DNA from: an uncultured Enterorhabdus sp.
GTDB taxonomy: Bacteria > Actinomycetota > Coriobacteriia > Coriobacteriales > Eggerthellaceae
Reading direction: 5' to 3'
DNA length: 64,000 nucleotides
Assembly: GCA_947649205.1 (NCBI GenBank)
Contig: CANSQM010000009.1
Coordinates: forward strand, 4,757-68,756
Below are positions 26,201 through 38,500 of this stretch, in pieces; the stretch's first letter is position 1; each line of letters starts with the position of its first letter. The position numbers and the translations under genes were made by a program. The notes beneath the pieces were generated by a model, which saw nothing but the letters and a program-made list of their open reading frames with translations, was not told the origin of the DNA and did not search any database.

Positions 26201-29200
26201 CTCGGCAATGACGCGGCCCACTTCGTCGTACTCGTAAGCCGCCTCTCCCATCGCATCGGCACGAGCGGTCACCAGGCCGTTGGCATCGTAAGCGTACAGC
26301 ACCGACTGGGCATCCCCCTGGGAATAGCCCTTTTCCACCAGATTGCCCAGCTCGTCCCAGTCGTAGGTGGTGGCGTTGCCAGCGGCATCCACCACGGCCG
26401 TCACACGGCCGGCCGGATCGCGCACGAATTCTTCCAGAGCGCCAGAGGGAGACTCCACCGAGGTAAGACCGCCCTCGGCATCGTAGCCGTAGCGGGTGAT
26501 GCGGCCCATGGCATCGGTTACCTGGGCCAAGTTCCCGTCCAGGTCGTACTCGTAGGAGGTCACGGCACCCTCGGGGCTCGTCACTTTCGTCAGCTGCCCG
26601 GCATCGTCCCACTCGTAGGCCGCGCTATGGCCGTTGCGATCGGTGGCCCGAACCACACGATTGGCGTCGTCGTAGTCCCACGATGACACCCGGCCAAGGG
26701 AATCGGTGACTGCCGACAGGTTGCCGACCTTATCCCACCTATAGGTTGTGACCGCGCCCATGGGAGAAGTCTGCCGCGCGAGGCGGCCGTCGCCATCCCA
26801 TTCGTAGGCAGTTATGTTGCCACGAGCATCGGCCTGGCTGGTCAGATTGCCCGCCGCGTCGTAGGAGAACACCAGGCCCTCGATATCGGTGCCTCCCTGG
26901 GCAACGAGGTTGCCGCGAGCGTCCCAGGCCCACCGCGCCGATTCCCCTTCACCGTTGCGCTGGGATACGAGGCGGTCCAGCCCATCGTAGGCATACTCGG
27001 TACGCACGCCGGCAGCATCGGTTTCGGCGGCCAAGTTGCCGGCATCATCCCATTCCCACGAACGCTTATGACCCGCCGCGTCCTCTTGACCCGTCAGACG
27101 CCCCAGAAGATCGTAGCTGTAGGTGACGCGAGCGCCCAGGTTGTCGCGATCGACAGCAGCGTTGCCTGCTTCATCGTACTCCAGTTCGCGCACGTAACCC
27201 CGCGGCGTGGTTATGCGGGTCAGGCGGTCGAGCTCATCCCAGCCGTATTCCCAGCGACCGCCGCCCGGGGCGGTGCGCGAGAGCACGTTGCCGCGGGCAT
27301 CGTACTCATAGGCCGTCGTGCGCCCCAGCGGATCGGTCTCAGCCGTCAGATTGCCGACCGCATCGTGACGGTACGAGGTTGCCGCGCCCGCGGTGTCGGT
27401 ATGAGTTGTCAGGTTGCCGAGAGCGTCCCAGGCCCATTGCTCCTCGCGGCCCAGAGCGTCGGTGTGCGACATGAGGCGCCCCTCGCCGTCATAAGCCCAC
27501 TGGTCGCGAGAGCCCTCGGGGCTCGTTGCGGCCGTCAGGTTGCCGTTAGCGTCCCAGACAAAAACCGCGCTGTTCCCCAAAGGATCGGTGGAGCGAACCA
27601 GGTTTCCCAAGGCATCGTAACCATAGGTCGTGGCGTTGCCCTCCTCGTCCACGGCCTCGGTAGTATTACCGACAGCGTCGTAGGCCCATCGCCGCACCGC
27701 GCCCATGGCATCGGTGGCCGCAGTGATATTGCCGGCGGCATCGTACTCGTAGCTCGTGACCGCCCCATCCGCCTCTCGCGTCTCGGAAAGCAGATTGTTG
27801 CGAGCATCCCAGCCATAGGAGATAGCGTGCCCCAGCCCATCGATCTCGCGGGAAAGATTGCCGGCAGCGTCGTACTCGTAGGTCGTTACGGAACCATCGA
27901 AGTCGCTCGCCCGCACTTCGCGGCCCCAGGCATCGTACTCCAGCGACGCGGTGCGGCCCAGAGAATCAGTCGCACTCGTCAGGTTGCCGGCACCGTCGTA
28001 CTCGTAAACCTCCGCACTGCCGGCGCTATCGGAGACAGCTGTCAGGTTGTCTCGCACGTCCCATTCATAGGTGGCCTCCACGCCGGCAGCATCCACTGTG
28101 CGCACGAGCCGACCCAATTTGTCATACTCGCTGGTCTCGCGGGCCCCATCGGGCCGGACACGGGCAGTCACGCGTCCCGCTGTATCGTGCTCGTAGGCTG
28201 TGACGTTTCCCAGGGTGTCGGTGGCGCTCACAAGATTGCCCACCGCATCGTAGGCGGCCGTGCGCCGGTGGCCCAAGGCGTCAGTCACTGCCACGACATT
28301 GCCCGCCTCGTCGTATTCGCAGCGCACCGTGTTGCCCGCTGCGTCCGTGACCGCCGTCACGGCTCCGAAGGCATCGTACTCGTAGCTCGTTTCATGGCCG
28401 AGGGCATCGCACTCGCGCACCACGTTGCCAGCGCCGTCGTAGGCGAAGCGCGTAACCGCTCCCAGAGCATCAGTCTCACTGAGAGTGCGACCCTCGCCAT
28501 CATGGGTCCAGGAGGCAATGGCACCCTGACCGTCGGAAAGGCTCGTCAGGTTTCCCGCCCCATCCCACGTAAACGAGAAAGCGCGACCGGCGGGATCGGT
28601 GGCGCCTTCCATGGCGCCGGAGCCATCGTAGGCGAACGACCAGGTGCGCCCCGCTTCGTCGATAGAACTCACGCGCCCGGCAGCCGTGTATGCGTAGGAT
28701 GTCGTTGTCCCACGCCCGTCAGCGACCGATGCGCGGCGCCCACCCGGCTCCCAGGTAATTCGCTCGCTCACACCCAGGGCATCTTCGGTTTCCGTCAGAT
28801 GACCAGCAGCATCATAGCGATAGGTTGTGACATTCCCCAGCGGATCCGTATAGCTGGTCGGCACACCGTAGGTGTCGTCGTAGGCGGCCTCCTCTACAAC
28901 GCCATCGGGGCTTTCCACGCGAATGACGTTATCCCGCTCGTCATAGGCATAACGGGTCGTGTGCCCCAGAGCGTCCGTTTCGGACACCATGCGGTCGCGA
29001 GCGTCATAAGCGTAGGTGGCAACCGCTCCGCCGGGTTCGACCTGACGTACCAAGTTTCCCGCCTTGTCGTAGCCGTAGCGGGTGACACCGCCAGCTGGGT
29101 CGGTCATGGTGGCTATTCGGTAGGCGCCGTCGTAGGTGAAGGAAGTGGTGTAACCACGCTCGTCGGTGATGGCCTTTACGAGCCCTAACCCGTCCAGTCG

Positions 29201-32200
29201 GTAGGAGCGGCTTCCCCCTGCACCATCCCGTTCGCCGACGAGATGACCGGCCGCATCGTAGGCCCACGTGCGTCCGTGCCCCGCCGGGTCGGTCTCGGAC
29301 ACCTTGCGCCCCATGGCATCGTAAGCGTATCGGGTGGTGCCCGCAGCCGTTTCCACGCGCATGAGCTTCGCACCGGTCCAGGCGTAGGTTTCGCGCACGC
29401 CATCGGCATCGGTCTTGGAGGTGCAGCGATTCGCAAAGTCGTAGGTGTAGGCGGTCGTGCCCGTGGCCGGCGAGGTTTCCGAGAGCAAGTTGCCCGCGCC
29501 GTCATAGGTATAGCGGGTGGTGGCACCGTCGGGGTCAGTGCGGCTCGTCACATGGTTCTTGCCGTCATAGGTGTAGCGGGTGACGTGCCCATCGGGACTA
29601 GTGGATTGCACCAAGTTGCCGGCGGCATCGTAAGCGTAGGTACCATTCTCGTCCGAGATGAGTGTGTTATTCGCCCCATAGACGCGCGCGACCTTCCGCC
29701 CGTCGGGATACTCGATGGACGTCGTGCGTCCTCGGTCGTCATAGCGATGCACCGTCGTGCGCCCGGCCGCATCGGTGGCTCGGGTGTAGCCAGACCCATA
29801 GGAAAGCGTGTTCACATTACCAGCCAAATCCACCTGGCGTGTCACGCGATTGGCCCCGTCGTAGGTGTTGGCTACCACGCGCCGGCCATTCTGGTCGTAC
29901 CAGGCGGTCATGCGCCCAGCGCCGTCGTACTCGTAGCGCACCGCCCGACCGCCGGCATCGGTGAAGCTCGTTAGATTCCCGCCGGCATCGTAGCCGTAGG
30001 CCAAGCGCGCACCGCCGGGAAGACTCACGGCGGTAATGAGCCCCTGAGCGTTGCAGGTCACAGCGTAGGAGGTGCCCGTGCGATCGGCGAGAGAGGCGAT
30101 ATGACCGTTGGCGTCGCGCCCGATCCGCGTGATGGAGCCGCCCGCGTCCTGTATCTCGGTGAGACGACCCCACTTATCGAAGCGGCGCACCGTTCCGTCG
30201 TCATCGACGATCTCCCAGCGGTAGCGCGTGGCCGAGCCTTCTTTGTAGGCGATCTTCTTCAGGGCCAACCCCGCTTCGCCGTGCCTCTTGAAGCCGCCCT
30301 TGCCGTCGGGGTCGAACCAGTATGTCTTGCCATCGCCCACTGAGTACACCGCCGCGCCGTTTTCCTGCAGGCCCAAGCTCTCATCCCAAGCGAAGCTCCA
30401 GTTGCGGCCGAAAGACGAGAGGTACCCGTCGCCCTGGGCGTTGTAGGTGCGCGTGAGGGCAAAGTCGCCGCCGAGGCCCGGCACCGAAGCGTCGGTGGCC
30501 TCCAGGATGAAATTGCCCGTATTCAGGTTGATGGGCTCGAAGCCGTATTCGCAATGCCTGCCGCGGCCCATGAGCGCCGAATCGATGCGCTTCTTCTGGC
30601 TGTCAGTCAGCTGCTTGGGGTTATAGGCCTTAGTGGTCTTCGGATTGCGCACGAATATAGTGTTGCCGCCCACGATGAGTGTGTCCTGCACACGATTGTC
30701 CTGGGCCAATGTGTTCAGGCTGACCCCGTAATGAGACGCAATGGAAGGGAGGGTATCTTTGGCCGTGGCCTTGTACACGAGGAAGCTGTCCGATTCCACC
30801 AGTTTGCCCGAGCTGCCGTTGGCCGCGGCCCGCGCCCGCACCTTGTAGCTGGTGTTGAACGCGAAGCCGCCGAACAACTTGCTCTGCCAGTTCGACAGCT
30901 TGTCGCGGTACTTGGTACCGCTGGGTACCTGCTTCTCCCACTCCGTGCTGTCGGGGTACTTGTAGCTGCGGCTGGCATAGGCCACCCCGGCGTCGTTTTT
31001 ACCCACCAGCTCGTAGGCCACCATGGAACGGGGCTGGGCCACGCCGTCCGCGAAGACGCCGTCTAGCTGTAGCTTGCCCGCGAAATCCGCCTCGGTCACC
31101 GTGCGCAGATTGATGGTCGTGGCGTTCAGAGACAGCGATTCGCTCACCGGGTCGGGCACCGCCCAGTCAATTTCCAAGGATGGAGGGTTGTCGGCGTTCT
31201 TGTTGTCCAAAAGCTCGCACTGCATGTTGCGCTCATCGGTGGCCTTGATGCACAGGCCGTTCTGGCCCCAGGTGCCCTGCACCCAGTTGTTGACGGGCTC
31301 GCGCACATCCCATGCCAGATAGCCCTTGGAGGTGCGGGCGTTTTGCGAGGTGACGAACTCGTGACCCATGGATTTCTGGCTATTCCAGGTAATAGAGTCG
31401 AAGTCCCAGGACGACTTGTTGCGGTAGAGGCCAAGCTCTGTCTTGCCGTTGGAGAAAGCCGTACGCTGATGCAGCCACAGCTTGGCCGAATCGATGCGAG
31501 CCTCGTCCATGATGTTGCCGAAGTCGTACTGGATGGCCAGGTACACCCGGCACATTCCAAGACCGTAGCCGCCGCGGAATTCCGCTGTACCCGTCTTGTC
31601 GCCGTCGTCGTAGCCGGCATATTGGAAGTCGTTCTCGCCGACGTAGGTATCGGGCGCCAGCTGCTCTACCGCCGTCACGCGCATGGCGCTCTTGGCAATG
31701 TCGATGGTAGGATCGATGCGCACCGGGTAGGCGCGTTCGGGAGCCGAAAGCCACTCCCAATTCGCCTCCACCCGCGCCACGGGCGTACCGTCCTCAGCAG
31801 TGCCGAGGGCCATGGAGACCGAATTGTCCACCGCCTCAGCAGCGTCTATGGCTATGGGTGCCGACAGCGTGATGATCTCGCGCGGGTCCTGGGCCGTGGC
31901 CGCCAGGGCCGGATCGGCGCTCTCTCCATCGCTCGGATCGGGCGCCGCTCCTTTCTCGCGTACGATGACGATGCCCCGTTCATGCACCACCTCCAGATCA
32001 TCGTCCACGATGATCTTCATGGCCGGCGCGAAGGCCTCCACGGGGCGCGTGAGGATGACGTCCTCCTTAACCACGCCGCCGAGGAGCGTGTATTGGTAGT
32101 CCACGCCAGGACGCACCTCGGTGTAGCGAATGGCATTACCCTCGGCGGCCGAATGGGTGAAGTCTCCCTCTTCAGGGACGAGCTCGATGCGATGGCCATC

Positions 32201-33328
32201 TTTCTCGATAACGATGCCGCGCCCCTCGCCCAAGGCTGCGGGCAAACGGAGATCGAACCCGTTGGCAGCAGGTTCGTACACGGTGGCGAAGTTGGGCTCG
32301 GGAAACACGGGGGCCGCTCCATCGCCTTCGCCGGAATCGCTTGCGCCCTCGGCAACAGCCGCAGCGCTCCCCCTTTCAGGCGAATCGGGCGCGAACAGGG
32401 AAAGGAACGCGGCCACGGGTCCTTCGTTCGCCGGTTCCTCAGCGACAACCAGGGTGTTATCAATGGGTCGGGCACTGCCATCTTCGTCGACATAGGCTGT
32501 GGCCACACCACCCAGCACTGTACGGAACCGCGTCTCCGAAAGCTGGTAGACCGCCACTCCATCTTCTGCCGATATCAGCTCCCCTTCGGGCTCTGGCTCG
32601 GCGTAGTAGTCCACCGGCGGCGCAGGTTCAATCACCTCGACAACGGGAACTTCCTCGGTGGCTTCTTCCGAATGCAGACCCTCCCCTTCGGATCCCGCAT
32701 CTGCCGATGCCGAGGGATCCTCCGGCTGTTCCTCCGAAGGCAACGGCAGAACATCGTCACTCCCCAGATCCGATTCTGCCGAAGAAGGGGCGTCTTCCTC
32801 GGTCGGACTGGGAGATGTTTCTTCATCGGGCTCGTCCGCGGGCCCGGGCAGGCCCGATTGCTCCCCATCTGCGCCGGGTGTCTGAATGTCGCTTTCCGCC
32901 TGCGGTGCTCCCGTATCACCTCGCAACTCGTCAGCATAGGCAGCCACGCCATCGCCCAGCAGCGAGAACGTAAGCAAGAATGCAAGGAGGCAACAGAGGG
33001 CTTGACGACCCGATCGGCGCATCCGGGGCACCACGGCATCCAAAACACTCGCGTTGATGCCACCCCGATCGCTTCGATTCCTCCGCGAACGTCCGTAGAG
33101 ATGTCGCACGAGCATGACCATGGCTACGGTGGAAGAGCCCAGGCCGATCGCGACGGAAGCCATGCGAACGAAAGCCCGGGCCGCTGACAAGCCGTGAGCG
33201 GGCACAACCCATTCCCAGGCAGCCCAGCCAACCAGTCCTGACAGCAATGCCGCCAAAACTGCGGCGCCGAGCATAGCGCTCAAGCACTTTGCAATAACGT
33301 AGCCAAACCCCCGAGACATGGTTCTCAT
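23258..33328 (-). CDS. Giant WapA-like Rhs/YD-repeat polymorphic toxin: TM/signal region, DNRLRE, LysM, DUF6531, YD repeats, Rhs core, PT-TG-like segment, AHH nuclease (start 33319-33361)
   Basis: Unbroken ORF; EPINLNTGNF...LTRTYN; dozens of YD/YE repeats; GYNGEE..GLQYLRARWYDP..G.F; NPVASADPTG; AAHHII...NGVYLP...HPGLH. Confidence 0.95.
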   Translation of the reverse strand: MRTMSRGFGYVIAKCLSAMLGAAVLAALLSGLVGWAAWEWVVPAHGLSAARAFVRMASVAIGLGSSTVAMVMLVRHLYGRSRRNRSDRGGINASVLDAVVPRMRRSGRQALCCLLAFLLTFSLLGDGVAAYADELRGDTGAPQAESDIQTPGADGEQSGLPGPADEPDEETSPSPTEEDAPSSAESDLGSDDVLPLPSEEQPEDPSASADAGSEGEGLHSEEATEEVPVVEVIEPAPPVDYYAEPEPEGELISAEDGVAVYQLSETRFRTVLGGVATAYVDEDGSARPIDNTLVVAEEPANEGPVAAFLSLFAPDSPERGSAAAVAEGASDSGEGDGAAPVFPEPNFATVYEPAANGFDLRLPAALGEGRGIVIEKDGHRIELVPEEGDFTHSAAEGNAIRYTEVRPGVDYQYTLLGGVVKEDVILTRPVEAFAPAMKIIVDDDLEVVHERGIVIVREKGAAPDPSDGESADPALAATAQDPREIITLSAPIAIDAAEAVDNSVSMALGTAEDGTPVARVEANWEWLSAPERAYPVRIDPTIDIAKSAMRVTAVEQLAPDTYVGENDFQYAGYDDGDKTGTAEFRGGYGLGMCRVYLAIQYDFGNIMDEARIDSAKLWLHQRTAFSNGKTELGLYRNKSSWDFDSITWNSQKSMGHEFVTSQNARTSKGYLAWDVREPVNNWVQGTWGQNGLCIKATDERNMQCELLDNKNADNPPSLEIDWAVPDPVSESLSLNATTINLRTVTEADFAGKLQLDGVFADGVAQPRSMVAYELVGKNDAGVAYASRSYKYPDSTEWEKQVPSGTKYRDKLSNWQSKLFGGFAFNTSYKVRARAAANGSSGKLVESDSFLVYKATAKDTLPSIASHYGVSLNTLAQDNRVQDTLIVGGNTIFVRNPKTTKAYNPKQLTDSQKKRIDSALMGRGRHCEYGFEPINLNTGNFILEATDASVPGLGGDFALTRTYNAQGDGYLSSFGRNWSFAWDESLGLQENGAAVYSVGDGKTYWFDPDGKGGFKRHGEAGLALKKIAYKEGSATRYRWEIVDDDGTVRRFDKWGRLTEIQDAGGSITRIGRDANGHIASLADRTGTSYAVTCNAQGLITAVSLPGGARLAYGYDAGGNLTSFTDAGGRAVRYEYDGAGRMTAWYDQNGRRVVANTYDGANRVTRQVDLAGNVNTLSYGSGYTRATDAAGRTTVHRYDDRGRTTSIEYPDGRKVARVYGANNTLISDENGTYAYDAAGNLVQSTSPDGHVTRYTYDGKNHVTSRTDPDGATTRYTYDGAGNLLSETSPATGTTAYTYDFANRCTSKTDADGVRETYAWTGAKLMRVETAAGTTRYAYDAMGRKVSETDPAGHGRTWAYDAAGHLVGERDGAGGSRSYRLDGLGLVKAITDERGYTTSFTYDGAYRIATMTDPAGGVTRYGYDKAGNLVRQVEPGGAVATYAYDARDRMVSETDALGHTTRYAYDERDNVIRVESPDGVVEEAAYDDTYGVPTSYTDPLGNVTTYRYDAAGHLTETEDALGVSERITWEPGGRRASVADGRGTTTSYAYTAAGRVSSIDEAGRTWSFAYDGSGAMEGATDPAGRAFSFTWDGAGNLTSLSDGQGAIASWTHDGEGRTLSETDALGAVTRFAYDGAGNVVRECDALGHETSYEYDAFGAVTAVTDAAGNTVRCEYDEAGNVVAVTDALGHRRTAAYDAVGNLVSATDTLGNVTAYEHDTAGRVTARVRPDGARETSEYDKLGRLVRTVDAAGVEATYEWDVRDNLTAVSDSAGSAEVYEYDGAGNLTSATDSLGRTASLEYDAWGREVRASDFDGSVTTYEYDAAGNLSREIDGLGHAISYGWDARNNLLSETREADGAVTSYEYDAAGNITAATDAMGAVRRWAYDAVGNTTEAVDEEGNATTYGYDALGNLVRSTDPLGNSAVFVWDANGNLTAATSPEGSRDQWAYDGEGRLMSHTDALGREEQWAWDALGNLTTHTDTAGAATSYRHDAVGNLTAETDPLGRTTAYEYDARGNVLSRTAPGGGRWEYGWDELDRLTRITTPRGYVRELEYDEAGNAAVDRDNLGARVTYSYDLLGRLTGQEDAAGHKRSWEWDDAGNLAAETDAAGVRTEYAYDGLDRLVSQRNGEGESARWAWDARGNLVAQGGTDIEGLVFSYDAAGNLTSQADARGNITAYEWDGDGRLARQTSPMGAVTTYRWDKVGNLSAVTDSLGRVSSWDYDDANRVVRATDRNGHSAAYEWDDAGQLTKVTSPEGAVTSYEYDLDGNLAQVTDAMGRITRYGYDAEGGLTSVESPSGALEEFVRDPAGRVTAVVDAAGNATTYDWDELGNLVEKGYSQGDAQSVLYAYDANGLVTARADAMGEAAYEYDEVGRVIAEADGQGRRIQYTYNSLGELDSVTYPDGSVVAYAYDAVGNLIQVRTAEGDYTYEYDEENRPVRLMRPDGSVTTYEYDGEGQLAKLENAGADGDSVSSFAYKWDGEGNPIAEEAVLTNPDGVVIQSARIYAYDDDDRLIAFEEKTDDGSGETHIREEYQWDAAGNRTAIERTDVVSGSTALTKLIYDDDDRLVESVGPEGRTTYEYDKAGNLVRKDAAGEDPVEYAYTAENRLAAVRQGGRVLMAATYDGDGNRVFQATLYHTDELAVGTMPFTELEPKEVTPGQPLPEPEDPAWWGAPTRVAPRWTAAEFGRLATTGTWERRPIEAPVASWRAASAKREAPGSDPALRWAVYGAAVGAASALVPACPAATALVALLDGLLDPLATHGAQPFGIPLPGTDAALLAAATLSSEERQTILSSAGVPLAAPRALPLRGNDLVPAAQEPAVLKPLGDSVQVRYGTIPTYTPYVQERWELVAYVNSTVIDDVAQPLARESSVSGALNDTYGLGRLSTVGGTEAVPVADTYLEDGFGSVSAVMAGDGRIAASYAYAPWGEAAADTGEFGGPALGGIGYQSELPHYGYNGEEATGAAGLQYLRARWYDPGAGTFGSRDTYLGDAADPATLNRYAYAEGNPVASADPTGHESRSTRGKTAKQVRKNSYSRNRVLSGGKGTWMQRSYTSKALKTKTSGLLTTNRSMDRRLASGGKPKAPFQSNTIIRTSGSSVIEKAWSVSQAARSVGRTTKKIFSPSKKRKSSAQIYAEREAARIKRLMCSTLPYYNAPKQKNHNSDTHTTLDIIGTFDPTPLSDGVNAIAYWREKDYTNMAISAIAAIIPYGGDLLKGGKVAKSIAKAASDASKESAAALKLGRPASSKVLAHNMKEAGVTRPSSDYAAHHIIAGGAAKADEARRVLEKWGIDINDPANGVYLPTKKEIVPDSAYHPGLHTNEYYKEVNTRILKASGSKKEVLEELAKIRGELVAGTFDY

Positions 33329-33399
33329 CCCCTTCTGAAGCCAAGGGCCCATGAAAACCATTATGGAATCTATCAGCTAAAATATCATTCGTTTAACGC

Positions 33400-33440
33400 C
33401 AACTTATCGTTGATAAAGAAAACGATTCGTTGAGAATCAC
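33400..33440. promoter_or_regulatory. 41-bp tandem-operator box upstream of rhs
   Basis: caacttatcgttgataaagaaaacgattcgttgagaatcac; 35/41 identical to 35790-35830. Confidence 0.8.
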
Positions 33441-33456
33441 GCTCGTCTCCAGCGCG

Positions 33457-33699
33457 CTAGTCTTCAGTGTAGAAGTCTTCCTGCTCGTCCGCCTCATCGT
33501 AGACGTAATCGAGAATATCCCCTGGCTTGCAATCGAGCGCCCGGCACAGTGCATTCAGAGTAGAGAAGCGAATGGCCTTGATGCGCCCCGTTTTGATGCG
33601 CGAAAGATTGTTCTCCGAAAGGCCAATGAGCTCGGCTATTTCCTTCGACTGAACCTTCCGCTTCGCAAGCATTACGTCTAAGTTTACGATGATTGCCAT
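33457..33699 (-). CDS. Cro/C1-type (YozG-like) XRE HTH regulator
   Basis: IIVNLDVMLAKRK, LSENNLSRIKTGRIKAIRFSTLNALCRALDCKPGDIL. Confidence 0.92.
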   Translation of the reverse strand: MAIIVNLDVMLAKRKVQSKEIAELIGLSENNLSRIKTGRIKAIRFSTLNALCRALDCKPGDILDYVYDEADEQEDFYTED

Positions 33700-33711
33700 G
33701 GCTCCGCTCCC

Positions 33712-34254
33712 CTACAGGGCCTCGTCGGCCAATTCTTGCAGAGTTTTCCCATAGCTGAGAATGTAAGCAAACAGGAAGAATGCCCCAGCAGCAATAAGTG
33801 TCTCGAAGTTGAGGTTGAGCCCTCCGGGTTGATCGCTGGTAAAAATCCCAAAGTCAACACCGCCAAAAGAAAAGCTAAGCGCCGAGACCAAAGGATCCCA
33901 GAAAAGGCAAAACAGGGTAAAGCCAACCATAAGCCACCCCGTGACCAGCATGCGCCTGATTTGTTTTTCAGAAAACGGAGTGGCGCCTTTCGCCACATCA
34001 TGAGCAACGAGAGCGCAGAGGGTAAAGGCGAGGCCCATCACGACATCCTGCGTAAGAGCATACATCGCCCCAATCCAGACAGCAGCCCCATTCCCTGAGC
34101 CTGATTGCTGAACCAAAGCGACAAGAAGGAATAGGGCAAGAACGACAAAGAACGCTGCGGCTACAGCAAAAGCTACGCTAAGGAAGCGGCCCATACGATG
34201 AGCCCTCTGAAGCGATGATTCGATCTTGCCCAATTCTCTGTTGATTTTCAACAA
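33712..34254 (-). CDS. DUF2975 membrane protein
   Basis: About 4 TM helices, GATPFSEKQIRRM, YGKTLQELADEAL ending; usual partner of a YozG-like XRE. Confidence 0.85.
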   Translation of the reverse strand: MLKINRELGKIESSLQRAHRMGRFLSVAFAVAAAFFVVLALFLLVALVQQSGSGNGAAVWIGAMYALTQDVVMGLAFTLCALVAHDVAKGATPFSEKQIRRMLVTGWLMVGFTLFCLFWDPLVSALSFSFGGVDFGIFTSDQPGGLNLNFETLIAAGAFFLFAYILSYGKTLQELADEAL

Positions 34255-34287
34255 AGTTCCTTTTCTCAGTCTGCTATGCCCAACAAA

Positions 34288-34482
34288 CTATAGGACGAGA
34301 GGCTTGGGTTGAGGAAAGTAGCCTTTCTTTTCACAAAACTTGCGCACCTGGGAAGACTCGCTTTTTGTCTCCGCGCTTTGCTTCGCATAGCCGACGTTTA
34401 CGCACACGCCTCCAAACCCAATATGCTGGCAACGCGAGTGGGAAGGGACATCGAAATCATCGAGATCAGAATGAAACAGCAT
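34288..34482 (-). CDS. 64-aa candidate RiPP precursor peptide
   Basis: AAAGGAGG RBS before ATG 34482 inside the rSAM 3' end; MLFHSDLDDFDVPSHSRCQHIGFGGVCVNVGYAKQSAETKSESSQVRKFCEKKGYFPQPKPLVL. Confidence 0.72.
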   Translation of the reverse strand: MLFHSDLDDFDVPSHSRCQHIGFGGVCVNVGYAKQSAETKSESSQVRKFCEKKGYFPQPKPLVL

Positions 34483-35701
34483 GGTTTGCCTCCTTTGGCA
34501 GTTGTCGTTTGATACTTTCCAACGTTTCCCTAAAAAACACCTGGTACAAGGTGCAATATGGGTCAGTTTCCCCGCCACTTCCTATGGCGCGGGCCCGGCA
34601 ACCGGTGCCACAAAGGTAGCGCAGGTCGCACGAGGCACACGGACTCGAAGCGCTCACCTCGTGCACTCGGCGGCCAATCAGCTCGCATTCCTTCGCCGTC
34701 GGTCCCTGCCCATCAAACACATTACCCATGCCATAGCGCTCGTCGTGCATCATGTGGCAGGGGTACACCTCGCCATCGGCGGCCACACTGAGCGTGTCCA
34801 TGCCGGCACCGCAATTCTCGCGGCACTCCAACCCGCTCGCGAGTGTCTGAATGGCCGCCCCATCGCCTCCAGAGCACTGGATCATTATGGAAGCCAAGCG
34901 TCGCAAGTCATCGTCAGTGGGCATGAGGCCCTCGTCGCCCCATCCGCAAGACGTAGAAGAAAGGAGGCTGAAGTTCAGTTCGCAATGCAGCCGAGCAGCC
35001 AAATCATAGTAGAGCGGCACATCATCTATATTGAGGCGGTGCATCGTGGGGGTAATGCAGACATTGATATCCGTCGCCTGCGCCTCGGTCACGAATTCCA
35101 CCAGTCGATCGAAACGTTGCTCTCCGCGAATGAACGCTGGATGGTCGGCAGTCGCCCCGTCGAAGGAAACGGAGATCGTATCGATATAGGGAGCGCAAGC
35201 AGAAAGAAGACTCCGATCAAGCACTGTTCCGTTTGTTAGCACGTTGATGGATGAAATCCCATGATCGATAGCCGCCAACTCAAGGATAGCAGGGAGGTCG
35301 GAGCGCAAGAAGGGTTCACCGCCCGATATATTCAACTCCGCAATGCCCCGCGACGAAAGATACCGCAATGCGTTGCCAATCTGCGTTACCGTAGGGTCAT
35401 CAGCACCATTGCGATCACCAATCCAGGAATAGCATCCCTCGCATCGCAAATTGCACCGGTGGGTAATATGCAGATAGGCACTCTTCAATACAGGCAAGGC
35501 CAGCCGGTCCAATCGGCCTGCCTCCATCTGCGCCGCCAAATCAGGAGCCAATCTCCCTACCTCAGCGATGGACACTTCGCCGGCCACGAATGCCTGCGCC
35601 AGCGGCACTTCATCGGGCGAGAGGCCAATCACGAAGCCTGTCTGAGGGTTTCCAAGCATCGCAATACCGTCGACGGCGAAAAGCCGAGCCCGTTCGTTCA
35701 C
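34466..35701 (-). CDS. Radical SAM/SPASM protein with N-terminal RRE-like region, probable peptide maturase
   Basis: CNLRCEGC, SGGEP, LTNG, VSFDG; SPASM CGAG..ADGEVYPC..CASCDLRYLCGTGCRA..DPYC; GTG 35701 after an AAAGGGG RBS. Confidence 0.9.
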   Translation of the reverse strand: MNERARLFAVDGIAMLGNPQTGFVIGLSPDEVPLAQAFVAGEVSIAEVGRLAPDLAAQMEAGRLDRLALPVLKSAYLHITHRCNLRCEGCYSWIGDRNGADDPTVTQIGNALRYLSSRGIAELNISGGEPFLRSDLPAILELAAIDHGISSINVLTNGTVLDRSLLSACAPYIDTISVSFDGATADHPAFIRGEQRFDRLVEFVTEAQATDINVCITPTMHRLNIDDVPLYYDLAARLHCELNFSLLSSTSCGWGDEGLMPTDDDLRRLASIMIQCSGGDGAAIQTLASGLECRENCGAGMDTLSVAADGEVYPCHMMHDERYGMGNVFDGQGPTAKECELIGRRVHEVSASSPCASCDLRYLCGTGCRARAIGSGGETDPYCTLYQVFFRETLESIKRQLPKEANHAVSF

Positions 35702-35789
35702 TGCATTTCGCCCCTTTCGATACGCATTGTTCCTCTCAAGCCGAATCATAGTTTCCGCTCTTTCGTCGTTGTTTTCCAGTCCCGATTAT

Positions 35790-35830
35790 CAACTTTTCGT
35801 TGTTAATTGAAACGATTCGTTGATAATCAC
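35790..35830. promoter_or_regulatory. 41-bp tandem-operator box between rSAM and lysR
   Basis: caacttttcgttgttaattgaaacgattcgttgataatcac; outer arms GATTATCAAC (35784-35793) and GTTGATAATC (35819-35828) are inverted repeats. Confidence 0.8.
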
Positions 35831-35934
35831 AAGGCTCATTTTCCAGAAAGTGCCCTATATGCGATTCACAACACCCCCAATCATCGAGTATCATTGATTA
35901 CCAACGAAGTTTTGTTGATTGCGGAGATGACGAT

Positions 35935-36864
35935 ATGCATATCGATCATTTAGCTTACCTTGTCGCGACGGTGGATTTGGGCAGCATGGCCGAAGCGGCC
36001 CACCACCTGCACGTGACCAGTCAGGCAATCTCCAAGGCCATCAAAGACATGGAGAAGTACTTTGGCCACGAGATCATTGCGCGCGACGGGCGCAGCATTA
36101 AGCCCACAGCGCTAGGCACCGAGCTTGCAGACCTCGCCCGTCCCGTTGTTGAAGGGTATAAAGACTTCGAGGCATTTGGGCTAAGCTACGTTAAGGACGG
36201 CGATTCTCCTCGCGCTATTCGACTGGGCATTCCCGTTACCGCCTTACGCGGCGCTCTGTTTGATGAAAGCCGGCTCGATCTTTTCCGATTTGAATTCCCG
36301 GAAATCTCACTGGAACTATTTCACAGTTCAGCGGACGGGTGTCTGAGGGCCTTAGAGCAGGGGCTCATTGATGCAGCGGTCAGCATTGGCCGCTGCAACC
36401 AGGATGACTTTTTCAACGTGCGTATCGGCTCGTTGCAACTTAAGGTTCTGGCTCGCACAGGCCACCCCGCCGCCGTGGGCGAAGCGGTCGATTTCAACGA
36501 TTTGGCACGATTCCCCATCGCGCTTCCCGAAGACCTGCGCTTTGTATTTCCCAAAATCGATCAGCAGTTTACCCAAACAGGCCAAAGTAATCGCTTCGAA
36601 GCCCTCACGCCAACCCTCGAAGCCCACAAAGCCTTTCTCGCCAAAGATGGCCTCATCTTGGCGGGCCAGAAGAGTCCGCTTCTGGAACTGGGTGATTTCC
36701 TGTGCGAAAAGCCACTTACCGTCGAAGAAGGCATCTTCGCCCTGCCCCTTTACCTCACCTACCCCCAGAATAAAAACCACCTTAGCCTTTCCCGCCTTCA
36801 ATCCACCCTTATCCGAGGACGGGGATCGCAAGAACCGTTACCCGCGAATCGTTCCCGCCCATAA
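35935..36864 (+). CDS. LysR-family transcriptional regulator
   Basis: GSMAEAAHHLHVTSQAISKAIKDMEKYFG..IIARDGRSIKPTALG; substrate-binding domain. Confidence 0.92.
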   Translation: MHIDHLAYLVATVDLGSMAEAAHHLHVTSQAISKAIKDMEKYFGHEIIARDGRSIKPTALGTELADLARPVVEGYKDFEAFGLSYVKDGDSPRAIRLGIPVTALRGALFDESRLDLFRFEFPEISLELFHSSADGCLRALEQGLIDAAVSIGRCNQDDFFNVRIGSLQLKVLARTGHPAAVGEAVDFNDLARFPIALPEDLRFVFPKIDQQFTQTGQSNRFEALTPTLEAHKAFLAKDGLILAGQKSPLLELGDFLCEKPLTVEEGIFALPLYLTYPQNKNHLSLSRLQSTLIRGRGSQEPLPANRSRP

Positions 36865-36880
36865 TCGAGAGAGGAGAACT

Positions 36881-36982
36881 ATGTCTACAGGAGAGAATGC
36901 ACGGAGCACTAGTTTTTGGCAATTCGATCAGCGCCTTGCCCGGCGCCTCAACGAAGAGCCCGGAGGACATCCCATCGGCTAG
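36881..36982 (+). CDS. 33-aa small ORF
   Basis: GAGGAG RBS upstream of ATG 36881; MSTGENARSTSFWQFDQRLARRLNEEPGGHPIG. Confidence 0.4.
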   Translation: MSTGENARSTSFWQFDQRLARRLNEEPGGHPIG

Positions 36983-37078
36983 CACGAAGAACTACGAGCA
37001 CCAATATCCATCCTGGTCCAAAGACCAATCCCAATTGCCAACAGTCACACATTCGAGCAGCTGATTAAGAAAGGCGGT

Positions 37079-38107
37079 TTGACAATGGACGATACCTTTT
37101 CTCCATTTGGAGCTCCCGAGTGGAAGGAGGAGGCCACCGAGGAGCAAATCCGACGTTTTCGGTCCAAACTACTTGCATGGTGTGCAGAACGCCCTGCCTT
37201 GCTTGCCCTCGTTGCGAGCGCCGCAGGCTTCGTGCTCATCTTCCTCTCCTATTGCACTCAATTCGGCCGAGCCTTCTATTTCGCCATTCCAATCACTGAA
37301 ATTCCCCCTGCGGAAACTTTGGAAACCATTTTGATCATGATCGCTGCCGCCGTTATCCTGCTTGCAACAAATTCAGTTTCATATCGCGAGGTAAAATACC
37401 AGAAGTGCACCCACATCCTAAAACAACTCGTCAAATGGTGGGGCTTTTTATTCATCCTGGTAGTTATTATTTTTGTACTATATGTGCTAATTACCGCGAT
37501 AATTAACGCGCCAATTAACACATTAATTGCCCCGCAGAACGCTGAAAATGGCCAGAGCGACTCCTGGATTGAACCATTGCCAGGACTTCTTGGCGCACTC
37601 GTCCTTCTTGCTCTCCTTATATGGATACTGGTTTTTGGAATGGGAGCTATCTTCGGCCTCTCTGAGCGCAGAAGCCCCCTATCGGTCCGCTGCTACGAAA
37701 AAGACTCGCCGCAAAAAACTGCTCCAAGCAATAACGCGGGAATCATACGGAACAAAATTGGCCGCCAGGCACTTCGATATGGCCTAGCTCTAGCTATTCT
37801 GTCGTGTGGTTTTGTCGCCATAGGTTTTATCGCTCCGCAGTATCCTGGCGCTCCCGCAACTATTGCTGTTGTCGACAACGAGACCGAAGAAAAGCAAACC
37901 TGGCTTGTCGTGTTCTCTGACAAAGATCGCGTTTGCGTGGAGGAATGCGATCTAAGCGATTCCTCACTCTTGAAAGTAGACACATCTCATTTTCTATGGA
38001 TGGACAAGTCAGACCTGGTTTTCTATCCCATCTCAACACCCCGCATAACCGTAGAACTTCCTTCGGACAACGAAGTCAATCCCGATTCAAGCGCAAATCA
38101 AAATTGA
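37079..38107 (+). CDS. Multi-pass membrane hypothetical protein, lower GC
   Basis: 342-aa ORF with about 5-6 hydrophobic helices and a soluble C-terminus; GAAAGG RBS. Confidence 0.75.
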   Translation: MTMDDTFSPFGAPEWKEEATEEQIRRFRSKLLAWCAERPALLALVASAAGFVLIFLSYCTQFGRAFYFAIPITEIPPAETLETILIMIAAAVILLATNSVSYREVKYQKCTHILKQLVKWWGFLFILVVIIFVLYVLITAIINAPINTLIAPQNAENGQSDSWIEPLPGLLGALVLLALLIWILVFGMGAIFGLSERRSPLSVRCYEKDSPQKTAPSNNAGIIRNKIGRQALRYGLALAILSCGFVAIGFIAPQYPGAPATIAVVDNETEEKQTWLVVFSDKDRVCVEECDLSDSSLLKVDTSHFLWMDKSDLVFYPISTPRITVELPSDNEVNPDSSANQN

Positions 38108-38190
38108 TGGCCGCATCGGAGAAATTCAGTCTGCAAAATCACCAAACGGCTAATGACAGACTGGGGTAGCCATTAGGCAGGGCTCCTGGG

Positions 38191-38399
38191 TACCAAACCG
38201 CCTGTTTTTGACGGGCGTTTCGGGTTTTCCGTCAAAAATGAGGGGTTTGGTATCGCGGGCGGTTTTTTGGCGATGCCGTGACCTGGTGCTTCTTTGGGCG
38301 AGGGTTCCAAACCCCTGCTTTTTGCCGGGAAAAACGGTACCAAACCCCTTATTTCTGCCGGAAAATCTTCTGAGGCTGGCAGAAATGAGGGGTTTGGTA
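38191..38399. repeat. Two 62-bp long-arm palindromes (38191-38252, 38338-38399) and a partial arm at 38307-38328
   Basis: Arms TACCAAACCCCT(C/T)ATTT...AAATGAGGGGTTTGGTA read directly. Confidence 0.85.
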
Positions 38400-38500
38400 T
38401 CGAAGAGGGTCTTATGGGACCATTTTTACAGCCAGCAGGGTTATCTGCGCCGCTCTTTTTCTTCGTGGCCGACAATCGGGCCCGCCCCCACCAAACGGAA

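What the first reader, a model, noticed from the sequence alone, without database searches (positions are those of the whole stretch)
34288..35701. Radical SAM/SPASM maturase with a hidden, overlapping 64-aa precursor peptide
An AAAGGAGG RBS inside the rSAM 3' end drives ATG 34482 (17-nt overlap); the ORF track starts this ORF too early. The peptide has an acidic leader-like part (MLFHSDLDDFDV), then RCQHIGFGGVC (C18, C27) and a third Cys (C50). The enzyme has CxxxCxxC, a full SPASM Cys set and an ~70-aa N-terminal region resembling an RRE. I cannot assign it to a named class (SCIFF/ranthipeptide, sactipeptide, triceptide, mycofactocin). Thioether or aromatic cross-links are inferred.
Basis: partly seen in the sequence, partly recalled or inferred. 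Interest (0 to 1): 0.85.

Follow-up and report, generated by a model that had tools for sequence, protein, structure and literature searches.

The report
Hidden peptide beside radical-SAM maturase
A small overlooked gene overlapping the end of a radical-SAM enzyme gene encodes that enzyme's probable peptide substrate, and the pair belongs to an undescribed four-gene cassette found in many gut Coriobacteriales.

Summary
ATG 34482 lies 6 nt after AAAGGAGG and 17 nt inside the rSAM/SPASM gene (34466-35749, minus strand). It opens a 64-aa ORF.

In 30 of 37 homologous loci an ORF starting MLF lies at the rSAM stop. The family consensus is MLF[YH][SG][ED]-x6-C-x2-[IV]-G-x3-5-C-x3-G-hydrophobic. Most members are only 27-28 aa and were uncalled in the four annotated records inspected.

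Codon comparisons show strong purifying selection on residues 1-33. The C-terminal 31 aa, including Cys50, evolve almost neutrally. They replace the terminator-bearing spacer of canonical cassettes.

The enzyme has CxxxCxxC, the 7-Cys SPASM motif and an N-terminal RRE-like domain of three strands and three helices. Its best structural match is CteB. It reaches no curated NCBIfam cut-off.

The peptide and enzyme always travel with a DUF2975-like membrane protein and an HTH_26 regulator, in three different gene orders. The window's genome holds three such cassettes.

My best reading is a new thioether-type RiPP family of Coriobacteriales. The chemistry and the biological role are inferred, not shown. 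No description was found in the paper library.

The parts
34466..35749 (-). Radical SAM/SPASM peptide maturase, 427 aa. The true start may be GTG 35704, which would give 412 aa like the homologs.
   Evidence: Pfam Radical_SAM 7.5e-21 and SPASM 9.9e-5. No NCBIfam cut-off is reached. The AF2 model has pLDDT 88 with residues 1-15 disordered. The best PDB matches are CteB 5WGG/5WHY by sequence profile (8e-29) and by fold (E 8e-19, 447 aligned columns).
35516..35692 (-). N-terminal RRE-like domain, about residues 20-78, with three strands followed by three helices.
   Evidence: The AF2 full-length model gives E22-26, E29-34, E39-42, H45-55, H61-67 and H69-77 at pLDDT above 90. The domain modelled alone has pLDDT 85.5. 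Its top five PDB fold hits are the lasso-peptide RRE TbiB1 bound to leader peptide. ThcOx, CteB, lasso B1 and the PbtF RRE also appear, but E is only 0.15-1.6. No Pfam PqqD hit was found.
35432..35455 (-). CxxxCxxC radical-SAM cluster motif (C99, C103, C106).
   Evidence: These residues are invariant in 29 aligned homologs.
34553..34813 (-). SPASM auxiliary-cluster domain with the 7-Cys motif: C313-x12-G-x4-C331, C371xxC374x5C380x3C384 and C399.
   Evidence: C313, C331, C371, C374, C384 and C399 are invariant and C380 is present in at least 90% of 29 homologs. An extra C309 is present only in the clade above about 45% identity.
34489..34496 (-). Shine-Dalgarno sequence AAAGGAGG for the peptide gene, inside the rSAM coding sequence.
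   Evidence: Sequence. The same AAGGAGG lies 6-9 nt before the MLF start in nearly all homologous loci.
34384..34482 (-). Conserved part of the precursor peptide, residues 1-33: MLFHSD leader element, C18-QHI-G22 and C27-VNV-G31-Y-A.
   Evidence: The family alignment of 30 unique peptides is. For window vs L083, codons 7-33 show 6 synonymous and 3 nonsynonymous changes, and codon-position identity is 0.93/0.93/0.70. For L081 vs L082 the core shows 14 synonymous and 0 nonsynonymous changes.
34288..34383 (-). Clade-specific C-terminal tail, residues 34-64 plus the stop, basic in composition and including Cys50.
   Evidence: Window vs L083 gives 4 synonymous and 12 nonsynonymous codon changes. 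L081 vs L082 gives 2 synonymous and 22 nonsynonymous. All six tails keep K+R at 7-8 and D+E at 2-3. The tail occupies the position of the terminator-bearing spacer of canonical cassettes and ends at a TATAGT/TATAAT box.
33712..34254 (-). DUF2975-like membrane protein of 180 aa, with a KG-x-[ST]PF loop motif and a C-terminal YG-x-x-LQ-x-x-x-D motif.
   Evidence: It follows the peptide in every cassette layout. Relatives give weak PF11188 hits, the best at 5.6e-6 and 26.8 bits against a cut-off of 27.
33457..33699 (-). Small XRE-type regulator of 80 aa (HTH_26).
   Evidence: PF13443 at 6.6e-22. It lies directly after the membrane gene in all layouts.
35790..35830 (.). A 41-nt box with two CAAC-N5-GTT(G) palindromes, 41-81 nt upstream of the rSAM ATG. 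It is a candidate operator.
   Evidence: One search shows it as a direct repeat with 33400-33440 at 85% identity and with an internal inverted repeat. It occurs only twice in the genome. It is conserved in L083. A CAAC-N5-GTTG site lies upstream of the rSAM gene in 8 of 37 loci, against about 0.4 expected.
33400..33440 (.). Second copy of the 41-nt box, between the HTH stop (33457) and the rhs start (33361).
   Evidence: The same placement is seen in L083.
35935..36864 (+). Divergent LysR-family regulator of 309 aa.
   Evidence: Pfam HTH_1 and LysR_substrate. It is also divergent from the rSAM gene in L083 and L117, and it is truncated in L081 and L082.

Best explanation
The 64-aa ORF is the precursor peptide of the overlapping radical SAM/SPASM enzyme. 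Together they form a RiPP (ribosomally made, post-translationally modified peptide) pair.

Proposed mechanism, all inferred: the enzyme's N-terminal RRE-like domain binds the invariant N-terminal MLF[HY][ST][DE] element. The radical-SAM cluster generates 5'-deoxyadenosyl radical, which abstracts a hydrogen from an acceptor carbon. The two invariant cysteines (C18 and C27 here) are then joined to acceptor residues as thioethers with the help of the SPASM auxiliary clusters. The most likely acceptors are the invariant glycines four residues downstream (G22 and G31). That would give two small unnested sactionine-type rings and a mass loss of 4 Da.

Only residues 1-33 are the functional substrate. 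The 31-aa basic tail is a clade-specific read-through into what is a terminator spacer in canonical family members.

The pair is half of a conserved four-gene cassette that also holds a DUF2975-like membrane protein and an HTH_26 regulator. That second pair probably senses, exports or gives immunity to the product and autoregulates the operon through the CAAC-N5-GTTG boxes.

Shown here: gene anatomy, conservation, selection pattern, enzyme fold and synteny. Inferred: the cross-link chemistry, leader recognition, and the roles of the membrane protein and the regulator.
For: - **Start site.** RBS, ATG and the 17-nt overlap are in the sequence.
- **Peptide conservation.** MLF-peptides lie at the rSAM stop in 30 of 37 loci from Eggerthellaceae, Coriobacteriaceae/Atopobiaceae-type genomes, Collinsella and Olsenella.
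- **Family alignment.** M1, L2, F3, the first Cys, the Gly at +4 and the terminal x3-G-hydrophobic motif are invariant or nearly so.
- **Wider search.** A profile search of 1.84 billion proteins finds 25 further representatives with the same N-terminal core and variable tails.
- **Selection.** The core shows 14 synonymous and 0 nonsynonymous changes in L081 vs L082, and 6 vs 3 in window vs L083.
- **Specificity.** A genome-wide motif scan gives three peptides, each beside an rSAM paralog.
- **Gene linkage.** All four genes are kept in a permuted order, peptide-membrane-HTH-rSAM, in L118 and in the own-genome locus L115.
- **Enzyme.** CxxxCxxC and the 7-Cys SPASM motif are invariant. The RRE-like fold is predicted. 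The best PDB relatives are thioether or RiPP maturases: CteB, PqqE and SkfB.
- **Closest curated family.** For canonical members the best sub-threshold NCBIfam hit is the streptosactin sactisynthase StsB, at 1.7e-39. Streptosactin has two small unnested Cys-x2-Ser/Gly sactionine rings (PMC9389541, PMC8172795).
Against: No experiment or mass spectrum exists, so the chemistry is a guess by analogy. Single-Cys family members (C-x4-G-x3-G-hydrophobic) keep the terminal G-hydrophobic motif without a second Cys, so the two CxxxG motifs need not each be a ring. The RRE assignment has weak statistics (Foldseek E 0.15-1.6) and no PqqD Pfam hit. The cassette has no protease or dedicated transporter, so leader removal and export are unexplained. 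Every curated maturase family is missed by a wide margin.
Confidence: 0.8

Rival explanations
1. The pair is a RiPP pair, but the chemistry is not two local Cys-to-Gly sactionine rings. Possibilities are nested or long-range thioethers, beta- or gamma-carbon (ranthionine) links, a reaction at the C-terminal G-hydrophobic residue as in mycofactocin, or an aromatic cross-link using the invariant Phe3 and Tyr/His4.
For: Single-Cys relatives keep x3-G-hydrophobic at the C-terminus. Canonical peptides stop exactly one residue after the last Gly. The window enzyme's top NCBIfam hit is the mycofactocin maturase, at 95 bits. CteB and PapB make gamma and beta links (PMC9389541). F3 and Y/H4 are invariant or nearly so.
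Against: Tails of 2-36 aa after the G-hydrophobic motif are common, so a free C-terminus at that point is not required. The last residue varies (F, I, V, L, Y or A), unlike the Tyr of mycofactocin. The only residues conserved around each Cys are the Gly at +4 and, in the first motif, I/V at +3.
Confidence: 0.3
2. The small ORF is not the enzyme's substrate. It would be a short membrane-active or regulatory peptide that belongs functionally to the DUF2975-like/HTH_26 pair, for example a partner or upstream leader ORF of the membrane gene. The rSAM would act on something else.
For: In all three layouts the peptide lies directly upstream of the membrane gene, while the rSAM gene lies either before the peptide or after the HTH gene.
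Against: Canonical cassettes place a hairpin plus T-run terminator between the peptide and the membrane gene. A solo membrane-HTH pair in the same genome (C6) has no peptide. No peptide is found without an rSAM in this genome. Translational coupling or overlap with the rSAM stop is the rule. The enzyme carries a peptide-binding RRE-like domain, and invariant Cys residues fit SPASM thioether chemistry.
Confidence: 0.08
3. The rSAM is a non-RiPP SPASM enzyme, such as an anSME-like protein maturase or a cofactor enzyme, and the small ORF is a chance frame.
For: anSME structures are strong fold hits (E about 5e-14). Haem d1 and NirJ-type families appear among the sub-threshold NCBIfam hits.
Against: The peptide is conserved at the amino-acid level with synonymous-only change. 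The peptide motif is found only beside rSAM paralogs. The fold alignment to CteB is about 75 columns longer than the alignment to anSME, which matches the extra N-terminal domain. No sulfatase or haem genes are nearby.
Confidence: 0.02

Closest known systems
Streptosactin system (GggA/GggB = StsA/StsB), a type-2 sactipeptide of Streptococcus thermophilus
   Same: It pairs an rSAM/SPASM enzyme with a short peptide carrying two Cys donors, each followed a few residues later by a small acceptor (Cys25-Ser28 and Cys31-Gly34). The result is two unnested small rings (PMC8172795, PMC9389541). StsB is the best sub-threshold NCBIfam hit for canonical members of this family.
   Different: The scores are far below the StsB cut-off: 82-136 bits against 625. 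The spacing here is C-x3-G, not C-x2-S/G. The precursor has no GGG motif. There is no protease/transporter gene and no Rgg/SHP regulation. Instead the cassette has a DUF2975-like protein and an HTH_26 regulator. The hosts are Actinomycetota, not streptococci.
SCIFF/CteA-CteB ranthipeptide system (PDB 5WGG/5WHY)
   Same: It is the best solved-structure relative by sequence profile (8e-29) and by fold over the full length including the N-terminal RRE. It has the same RRE, rSAM and 7-Cys SPASM architecture. It is also a minimal cassette without a protease or transporter.
   Different: TIGR03974 scores 71 bits against a cut-off of 425. SCIFF peptides carry six Cys in a C-terminal core behind a long leader. 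Here there are one or two Cys, the conserved element starts at Met1, and the peptides are typically 27-28 aa.
Mycofactocin (MftA/MftC) and PQQ (PqqA/PqqE)
   Same: Both have very short precursors (about 22-30 aa) recognised by an RRE and modified by an rSAM/SPASM enzyme. MftC is the top NCBIfam hit for the window enzyme.
   Different: The scores are 95 against a cut-off of 265 for MftC and 85 against 381 for PqqE. There is no C-terminal Gly-Val-Tyr and no Glu/Tyr pair. No mftB/D/E/F or pqqB/C/D genes are nearby.
DUF2975 membrane protein plus HTH_26 (YozG-like) regulator gene pairs
   Same: The second half of the cassette is such a pair. A solo copy also exists in this genome at C6.
   Different: Neither half of such pairs has a known function that I could find; DUF2975 appears in only 4 papers of the library. 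I found no description of a link to an rSAM and peptide.

Membership tests
Radical-SAM-modified RiPP (rSAM/SPASM maturase plus precursor), generic class | CxxxCxxC radical-SAM cluster motif | tested here: met
   C99, C103 and C106 are invariant in 29 homologs. Pfam PF04055 scores 7.5e-21.
Radical-SAM-modified RiPP (rSAM/SPASM maturase plus precursor), generic class | SPASM 7-Cys auxiliary-cluster motif: CX9-15GX4C ... CX2CX5CX3C ... C | tested here: met
   The motif reads C313-x12-G-x4-C331, C371xxC374x5C380x3C384 and C399. PF13186 scores 9.9e-5.
Radical-SAM-modified RiPP (rSAM/SPASM maturase plus precursor), generic class | RiPP recognition element (PqqD-like winged helix of three strands and three helices) | tested here: inconclusive
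   AF2 predicts three strands and three helices at pLDDT above 90. The top five fold hits are the TbiB1 RRE and other RREs follow, but E is 0.15-1.6. No PqqD Pfam hit was found.
Radical-SAM-modified RiPP (rSAM/SPASM maturase plus precursor), generic class | Conserved small peptide gene adjacent to the enzyme and under purifying selection | tested here: met
   Present in 30 of 37 loci. The core shows 14 synonymous and 0 nonsynonymous changes. The genome scan gives 3 of 3 peptides beside rSAM paralogs.
Radical-SAM-modified RiPP (rSAM/SPASM maturase plus precursor), generic class | Demonstrated post-translational modification of the peptide | not testable with these tools
   This needs co-expression and LC-MS/MS.
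Sactipeptide (including the StsB/GggB type 2) | Maturase reaches the curated family score (NF045574 StsB, NF012164 AlbA) | tested here: not met
   For StsB the window enzyme scores 82.4 bits against a cut-off of 625, and canonical members score up to 136 bits. For AlbA the scores are 73-80 bits against 850.
Sactipeptide (including the StsB/GggB type 2) | Cys sulfur to alpha-carbon thioether | not testable with these tools
   This is inferred only from the invariant Cys and the Gly at +4.
SCIFF / ranthipeptide | Maturase TIGR03974, and a peptide with six Cys in about 45 residues | tested here: not met
   TIGR03974 scores 71.2 bits against a cut-off of 425. The family peptides have one or two conserved Cys. 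No NCBIfam peptide model hits.
Mycofactocin | MftC equivalog score, an MftA C-terminal GVY, and mftB/D/E/F neighbours | tested here: not met
   TIGR03962 scores 95.1 bits against a cut-off of 265. The peptide's C-terminus is variable. The neighbours are a DUF2975-like protein, an HTH, a LysR regulator and rhs.
PQQ (PqqE) | PqqE equivalog score, a PqqA Glu/Tyr motif, and pqqBCD neighbours | tested here: not met
   TIGR02109 scores 85.1 bits against a cut-off of 381. No pqq genes are nearby.
Anaerobic sulfatase maturase (anSME) | TIGR03942 score, no RRE, and a sulfatase partner | tested here: not met
   TIGR03942 is not among the window enzyme's top hits. For P0025 it scores 71.5 bits against a cut-off of 349. 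An extra N-terminal domain is present. No sulfatase gene is nearby.
DUF2975 (PF11188), for the membrane protein at 33712-34254 | Pfam gathering score of 27 bits | tested here: inconclusive
   The window protein gives no hit. Cassette relatives score 16.6-26.8 bits, and a precomputed weak hit exists in L119.

The most novel reading that the evidence does not exclude
The four genes form a self-contained peptide-signalling circuit. The rSAM-cross-linked MLF-peptide would be the ligand of the DUF2975-like membrane protein. That protein would control the HTH_26 regulator, which would bind the CAAC-N5-GTTG boxes in front of both the maturase operon and the neighbouring 3367-aa Rhs toxin gene. A RiPP autoinducer would then gate Rhs toxin deployment in gut Eggerthellaceae, and the widespread DUF2975/HTH_26 pairs would gain a first function. 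A more speculative side reading: because every family member begins Met-Leu-Phe, an unprocessed secreted product would carry the N-terminus of the classic formyl-peptide chemoattractant fMLF. I state that resemblance from my own knowledge.
Probability: 0.12. Interest if true: 0.85.

Novelty: new variant of a known kind. Interest (0 to 1): 0.62.

Why it matters
The finding defines a previously unannotated precursor-peptide family and a matching rSAM/SPASM maturase clade. The clade was found in 46 of 201 sampled Eggerthellaceae genomes and occurs in three families of Coriobacteriales. These bacteria are prominent in gut drug and polyphenol metabolism, and I found no radical-SAM RiPP described from them in the paper library.

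Most precursors are 22-28 aa and were not called in the four annotated records I inspected. Maturases of this family can therefore look like orphans.

The family offers a compact substrate for studying thioether-forming SPASM enzymes: a 12-residue leader that starts at Met1, followed by one or two Cys motifs. It also gives the first functional handle on DUF2975/HTH_26 gene pairs. Finally, the shared operator-like box suggests a possible regulatory link to an Rhs toxin locus.

Tried and rejected
- **Genome-contig scan.** Only L001-L004 were relevant, so I switched to the look-up of encoding contigs and the genome search.
- **Peptide word search.** The word-based homolog search found only two clusters. 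The profile search was needed.
- **Family models for the peptides.** NCBIfam and Pfam gave nothing.
- **PqqD/RRE by sequence.** The Pfam scan of six N-terminal domains gave no hit.
- **Terminator after the window peptide.** None was found. The hairpins exist only in canonical cassettes.
- **Peptide relic upstream of the solo membrane-HTH pair on C6.** None was found.
- **Literature.** Searches combining RiPP, radical SAM, SPASM, sactipeptide or ranthipeptide with Eggerthellaceae, Coriobacteriia or genus names, and searches for the peptide N-termini, found no description. The library does not hold most subscription journals, so absence is not proof.
- **Tail frame kept open by selection.** The other two frames are also nearly stop-free, so this idea was rejected.
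- **Rhs adjacency as a general family feature.** It is seen only in the window, L083 and L118, so it was rejected as general.
Full report
**1. Observation**

On the minus strand the sequence reads ...CTGCCAAAGGAGGCAAACCATGCTGTTTCATTCTGA.
- AAAGGAGG occupies 34496-34489.
- After a 6-nt spacer, the ATG lies at 34482-34480.
- The rSAM frame ends with TGA at 34468-34466, so the two genes overlap by 17 nt.
- The mechanical ORF list begins this frame at GTG 34578 and gives 96 aa.
- The 64-aa product is MLFHSDLDDFDVPSHSRCQHIGFGGVCVNVGYAKQSAETKSESSQVRKFCEKKGYFPQPKPLVL.
- The enzyme ORF (34466-35749, 427 aa) carries C99xxxC103xxC106 and the SPASM pattern C313-x12-G-x4-C331, C371xxC374x5C380x3C384 and C399.
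- Its first 15 residues are disordered in the model, and close homologs start at the equivalent of GTG 35704. The true start may therefore be that GTG.

**2. Is the peptide real?**

The enzyme has about 200 word-search homologs, and those that carry names are almost all Eggerthellaceae: Adlercreutzia, Gordonibacter, Arabiibacter and Parvibacter.

I fetched loci in three ways: by exact protein, from 201 genomes of the same family, and from 301 genomes of the class.
- In 30 of 37 loci an ORF beginning ATG-CTN-TTY (Met-Leu-Phe) starts between -48 and +19 nt of the rSAM stop. It is preceded by AAGGAGG-like sequence.
- Thirty unique peptides align to MLF[YH][SG][ED]-x6-C-x2-[IV]-G-x3-5-C-x3-G-hydrophobic.
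- Typical members are 27-28 aa and stop one residue after the last Gly, for example MLFYSEADPRSVCYPIGFNGSCFAIGF.
- In members from the other two families of the order, including Collinsella (L002) and Olsenella (L003), the peptide is 22-25 aa with a single Cys, for example MLFVIERTDEISPTCVPIWGVLIGY.
- None of the four annotated public records I inspected calls the short gene.

Selection is clear.
- L081 vs L082, codons 1-30: 14 synonymous and 0 nonsynonymous changes.
- Window vs its 71%-identical relative L083, codons 7-33: 6 synonymous and 3 nonsynonymous changes. Third-position identity is 0.70, against 0.93 at positions 1 and 2.

A six-frame motif scan of the whole 2.74-Mb genome returns exactly three peptides. 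Each lies beside one of the three rSAM paralogs.

A profile search of 1.84 billion representative proteins finds 25 more members of 30 aa or longer. All have the same N-terminal core and very variable C-terminal tails.

**3. What is special about the window's copy?**

The window belongs to a same-genus clade (50-100% enzyme identity) with three shared traits:
- the peptide start overlaps the enzyme gene by 17 nt;
- the enzyme therefore ends ...KE-x-x-HAVS[FHQ];
- the peptide runs on for 28-36 further residues after G[FY]A.

These tails evolve without amino-acid constraint.
- Window vs L083: 4 synonymous and 12 nonsynonymous changes.
- L081 vs L082: 2 synonymous and 22 nonsynonymous changes.
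- Cys50 lies in this region and is not conserved.

In canonical cassettes the corresponding DNA is a 70-130-nt spacer with a GC-rich hairpin followed by a T-run, for example AAAGGCCCTTTGAATTCAAAGGGCCTTT. In the window clade no terminator is found. The ORF ends in or beside a conserved TATAAT/TATAGT box 33-40 nt before the membrane gene.

All six tails nevertheless keep a net charge of +4 to +5, which I cannot explain. Short tails of 7-8 aa also occur in the permuted subtype. A free C-terminus right after the G-hydrophobic motif is therefore not obligatory.

**4. The enzyme**
- No curated NCBIfam model is reached. For the window enzyme the best score is the mycofactocin maturase at 95 bits against a cut-off of 265. 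For canonical members the best is StsB at up to 136 bits against 625.
- A profile of 29 homologs matches CteB (5WGG, 8e-29), then PqqE, GDGT-MAS, SkfB and anSME.
- The AF2 model (pLDDT 88, pTM 0.87) aligns best with CteB over 447 columns. It aligns with anSME over only about 365-390 columns. The difference corresponds to the extra N-terminal domain.
- That domain has strands at 22-26, 29-34 and 39-42 and helices at 45-55, 61-67 and 69-77. Modelled alone it reaches pLDDT 85.5.
- Its top PDB fold hits are the leader-binding RRE TbiB1 (ranks 1-5), ThcOx, CteB, lasso B1 and the PbtF RRE. E-values are only 0.15-1.6, and Pfam PqqD is not detected.
- I therefore call the domain RRE-like, supported by fold but not proven.

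**5. The cassette**

Directly after the peptide comes a membrane protein of about 180 aa. It has a conserved KG-x-[ST]PF loop and a YG-x-x-LQ-x-x-x-D tail. Relatives give weak DUF2975 hits. An 80-aa HTH_26 regulator follows.

Three layouts exist:
- (a) rSAM, peptide (27-28 aa), terminator, membrane protein, HTH;
- (b) the window clade, with a divergent LysR and the long overlapping peptide;
- (c) the permuted order peptide (34-35 aa), membrane protein, HTH, rSAM. This is seen in L118, whose rSAM (P0073) NCBI names from Parvibacter caecicola, and in the window's own genome at C12.

All four genes stay together through a rearrangement, which is good evidence of a functional unit.

The genome holds all three cassette types: C9 (the window), C16 and C12. 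It also holds one solo membrane-HTH pair on C6 with no peptide or rSAM.

No cassette contains a protease or a dedicated transporter.

**6. Mechanism (inferred)**

I reason by analogy with CteB, SkfB, AlbA, PapB and especially GggB/StsB. GggB/StsB makes two small unnested sactionine rings, Cys25-Ser28 and Cys31-Gly34 (PMC8172795 and PMC9389541).

I propose the following steps:
- The RRE-like domain binds the invariant MLF[HY][ST][DE] N-terminus.
- The enzyme links each invariant Cys to the invariant Gly at +4, or to a neighbouring residue.
- Each ring removes 2 Da.

The single-Cys relatives keep the terminal x3-G-hydrophobic motif. This warns that the topology cannot be read from sequence alone. 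I give about 0.8 to the statement that this is a maturase-precursor pair. Within that, I give roughly even odds to the two-local-rings model.

**7. Regulation and neighbourhood (partly followed)**
- A 41-nt box with two CAAC-N5-GTT(G) palindromes lies 41-81 nt upstream of the rSAM ATG. A second copy, 85% identical, lies between the HTH stop and the start of the 3367-aa rhs gene.
- These are the only two copies in the genome. Both positions are conserved in L083.
- A CAAC-N5-GTTG site lies upstream of the rSAM gene in 8 of 37 loci, against about 0.4 expected from the background density.
- An rhs homolog also abuts the cassette, divergently, in L118.
- The cassette, LysR and a 342-aa membrane ORF sit in a 51-57% GC stretch (about 33000-38500) of a 65% GC genome.

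**8. Comparison and novelty**

The pair works like known thioether RiPP systems. It fails every curated membership score that I could test. Its precursor family has no model in NCBIfam or Pfam.

Six literature searches found no description (and the streptosactin reviews). The paper library lacks most subscription journals, so large-scale rSAM-RiPP mining papers may list the clade without my seeing it.

I class the finding as a new variant of a known kind.

**9. Limits**
- No biochemical evidence exists.
- The RRE statistics are weak.
- The organism name was not determined directly. It is inferred to be Eggerthellaceae from the named homologs.

Noticed in passing
window 35790-35830 and 33400-33440: A 41-nt box holding two CAAC-N5-GTT(G) palindromes flanks the cassette. 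One copy is upstream of the rSAM gene and the other is between the HTH stop and the rhs start. These are the only two copies in the 2.7-Mb genome. Both are conserved in L083, and similar palindromes lie upstream of the rSAM gene in 8 of 37 loci.
   Followed up: partly
window 23258-33361 (-); L083:3774-4352; L118:1-4827: A giant Rhs-repeat protein gene lies directly next to the cassette in the window and in L083, in the same direction. In L118 (rSAM named from Parvibacter caecicola) it lies next to the cassette but divergently. In 8 other loci with usable flanks (L002, L003, L081, L082, L115, L116, L117, L119) tblastn found no rhs.
   Followed up: partly
G000 C16:56500-62500 (L114), C12:39800-45800 (L115), C6:97500-103500 (L120): The same genome holds two further complete cassettes. 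One is canonical, with the peptide MLFYGEPEPQNVCFYVGPSAPCLKVGI. The other is permuted, with MLFFSNFDCMAGCIYVGPTGFCISHGAIAVSENKQ. There is also one solo DUF2975-like/HTH_26 pair without an rSAM or a peptide, and its HTH is 73% identical to the window's.
   Followed up: yes
L090-L113, spacer between the peptide stop and the membrane gene: Canonical cassettes carry a strong GC hairpin plus T-run directly after the 27-28-aa peptide gene, which suggests separate rSAM-peptide and membrane-HTH transcripts. The window clade has lost the hairpin, and the peptide ORF reads through to a TATAAT/TATAGT box.
   Followed up: partly
window 34474-34482 and all family peptides: Every family member begins Met-Leu-Phe. 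From my own knowledge, this is the sequence of the classic formyl-peptide chemoattractant fMLF. The match may only reflect leader recognition.
   Followed up: no
window ~33000-38500: This stretch has 51-57% GC in a genome that averages 65.2% GC. It contains the cassette, LysR and an unannotated 342-aa membrane ORF (37079-38107) with no Pfam hit. It may be a horizontally acquired island.
   Followed up: partly
L118:7299-8675 and L102 (ORF 185 nt after the rSAM stop): In L118 a protein of about 450 aa follows the rSAM gene and gives weak circularly-permuted ATP-grasp / glutathionylspermidine-synthase-like Pfam hits. A 440-aa ORF with a similar N-terminus (MVTNAEY... vs MATNAEL...) follows the rSAM gene in L102 and was not scanned. 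These could be an extra tailoring enzyme.
   Followed up: no
window 34823-34825 (Cys309 of the rSAM): An additional Cys four residues before the first SPASM Cys is present only in the clade above about 45% identity, including the window. It could be a fourth ligand for auxiliary cluster I. Canonical members have the open-site 7-Cys pattern seen in CteB.
   Followed up: no
It is followed 2 nt after its stop by an uncalled 25-aa ORF, MLFVVEIKADSLSGCLDILGVRIGA. This ORF is probably its missing substrate.
   Followed up: partly
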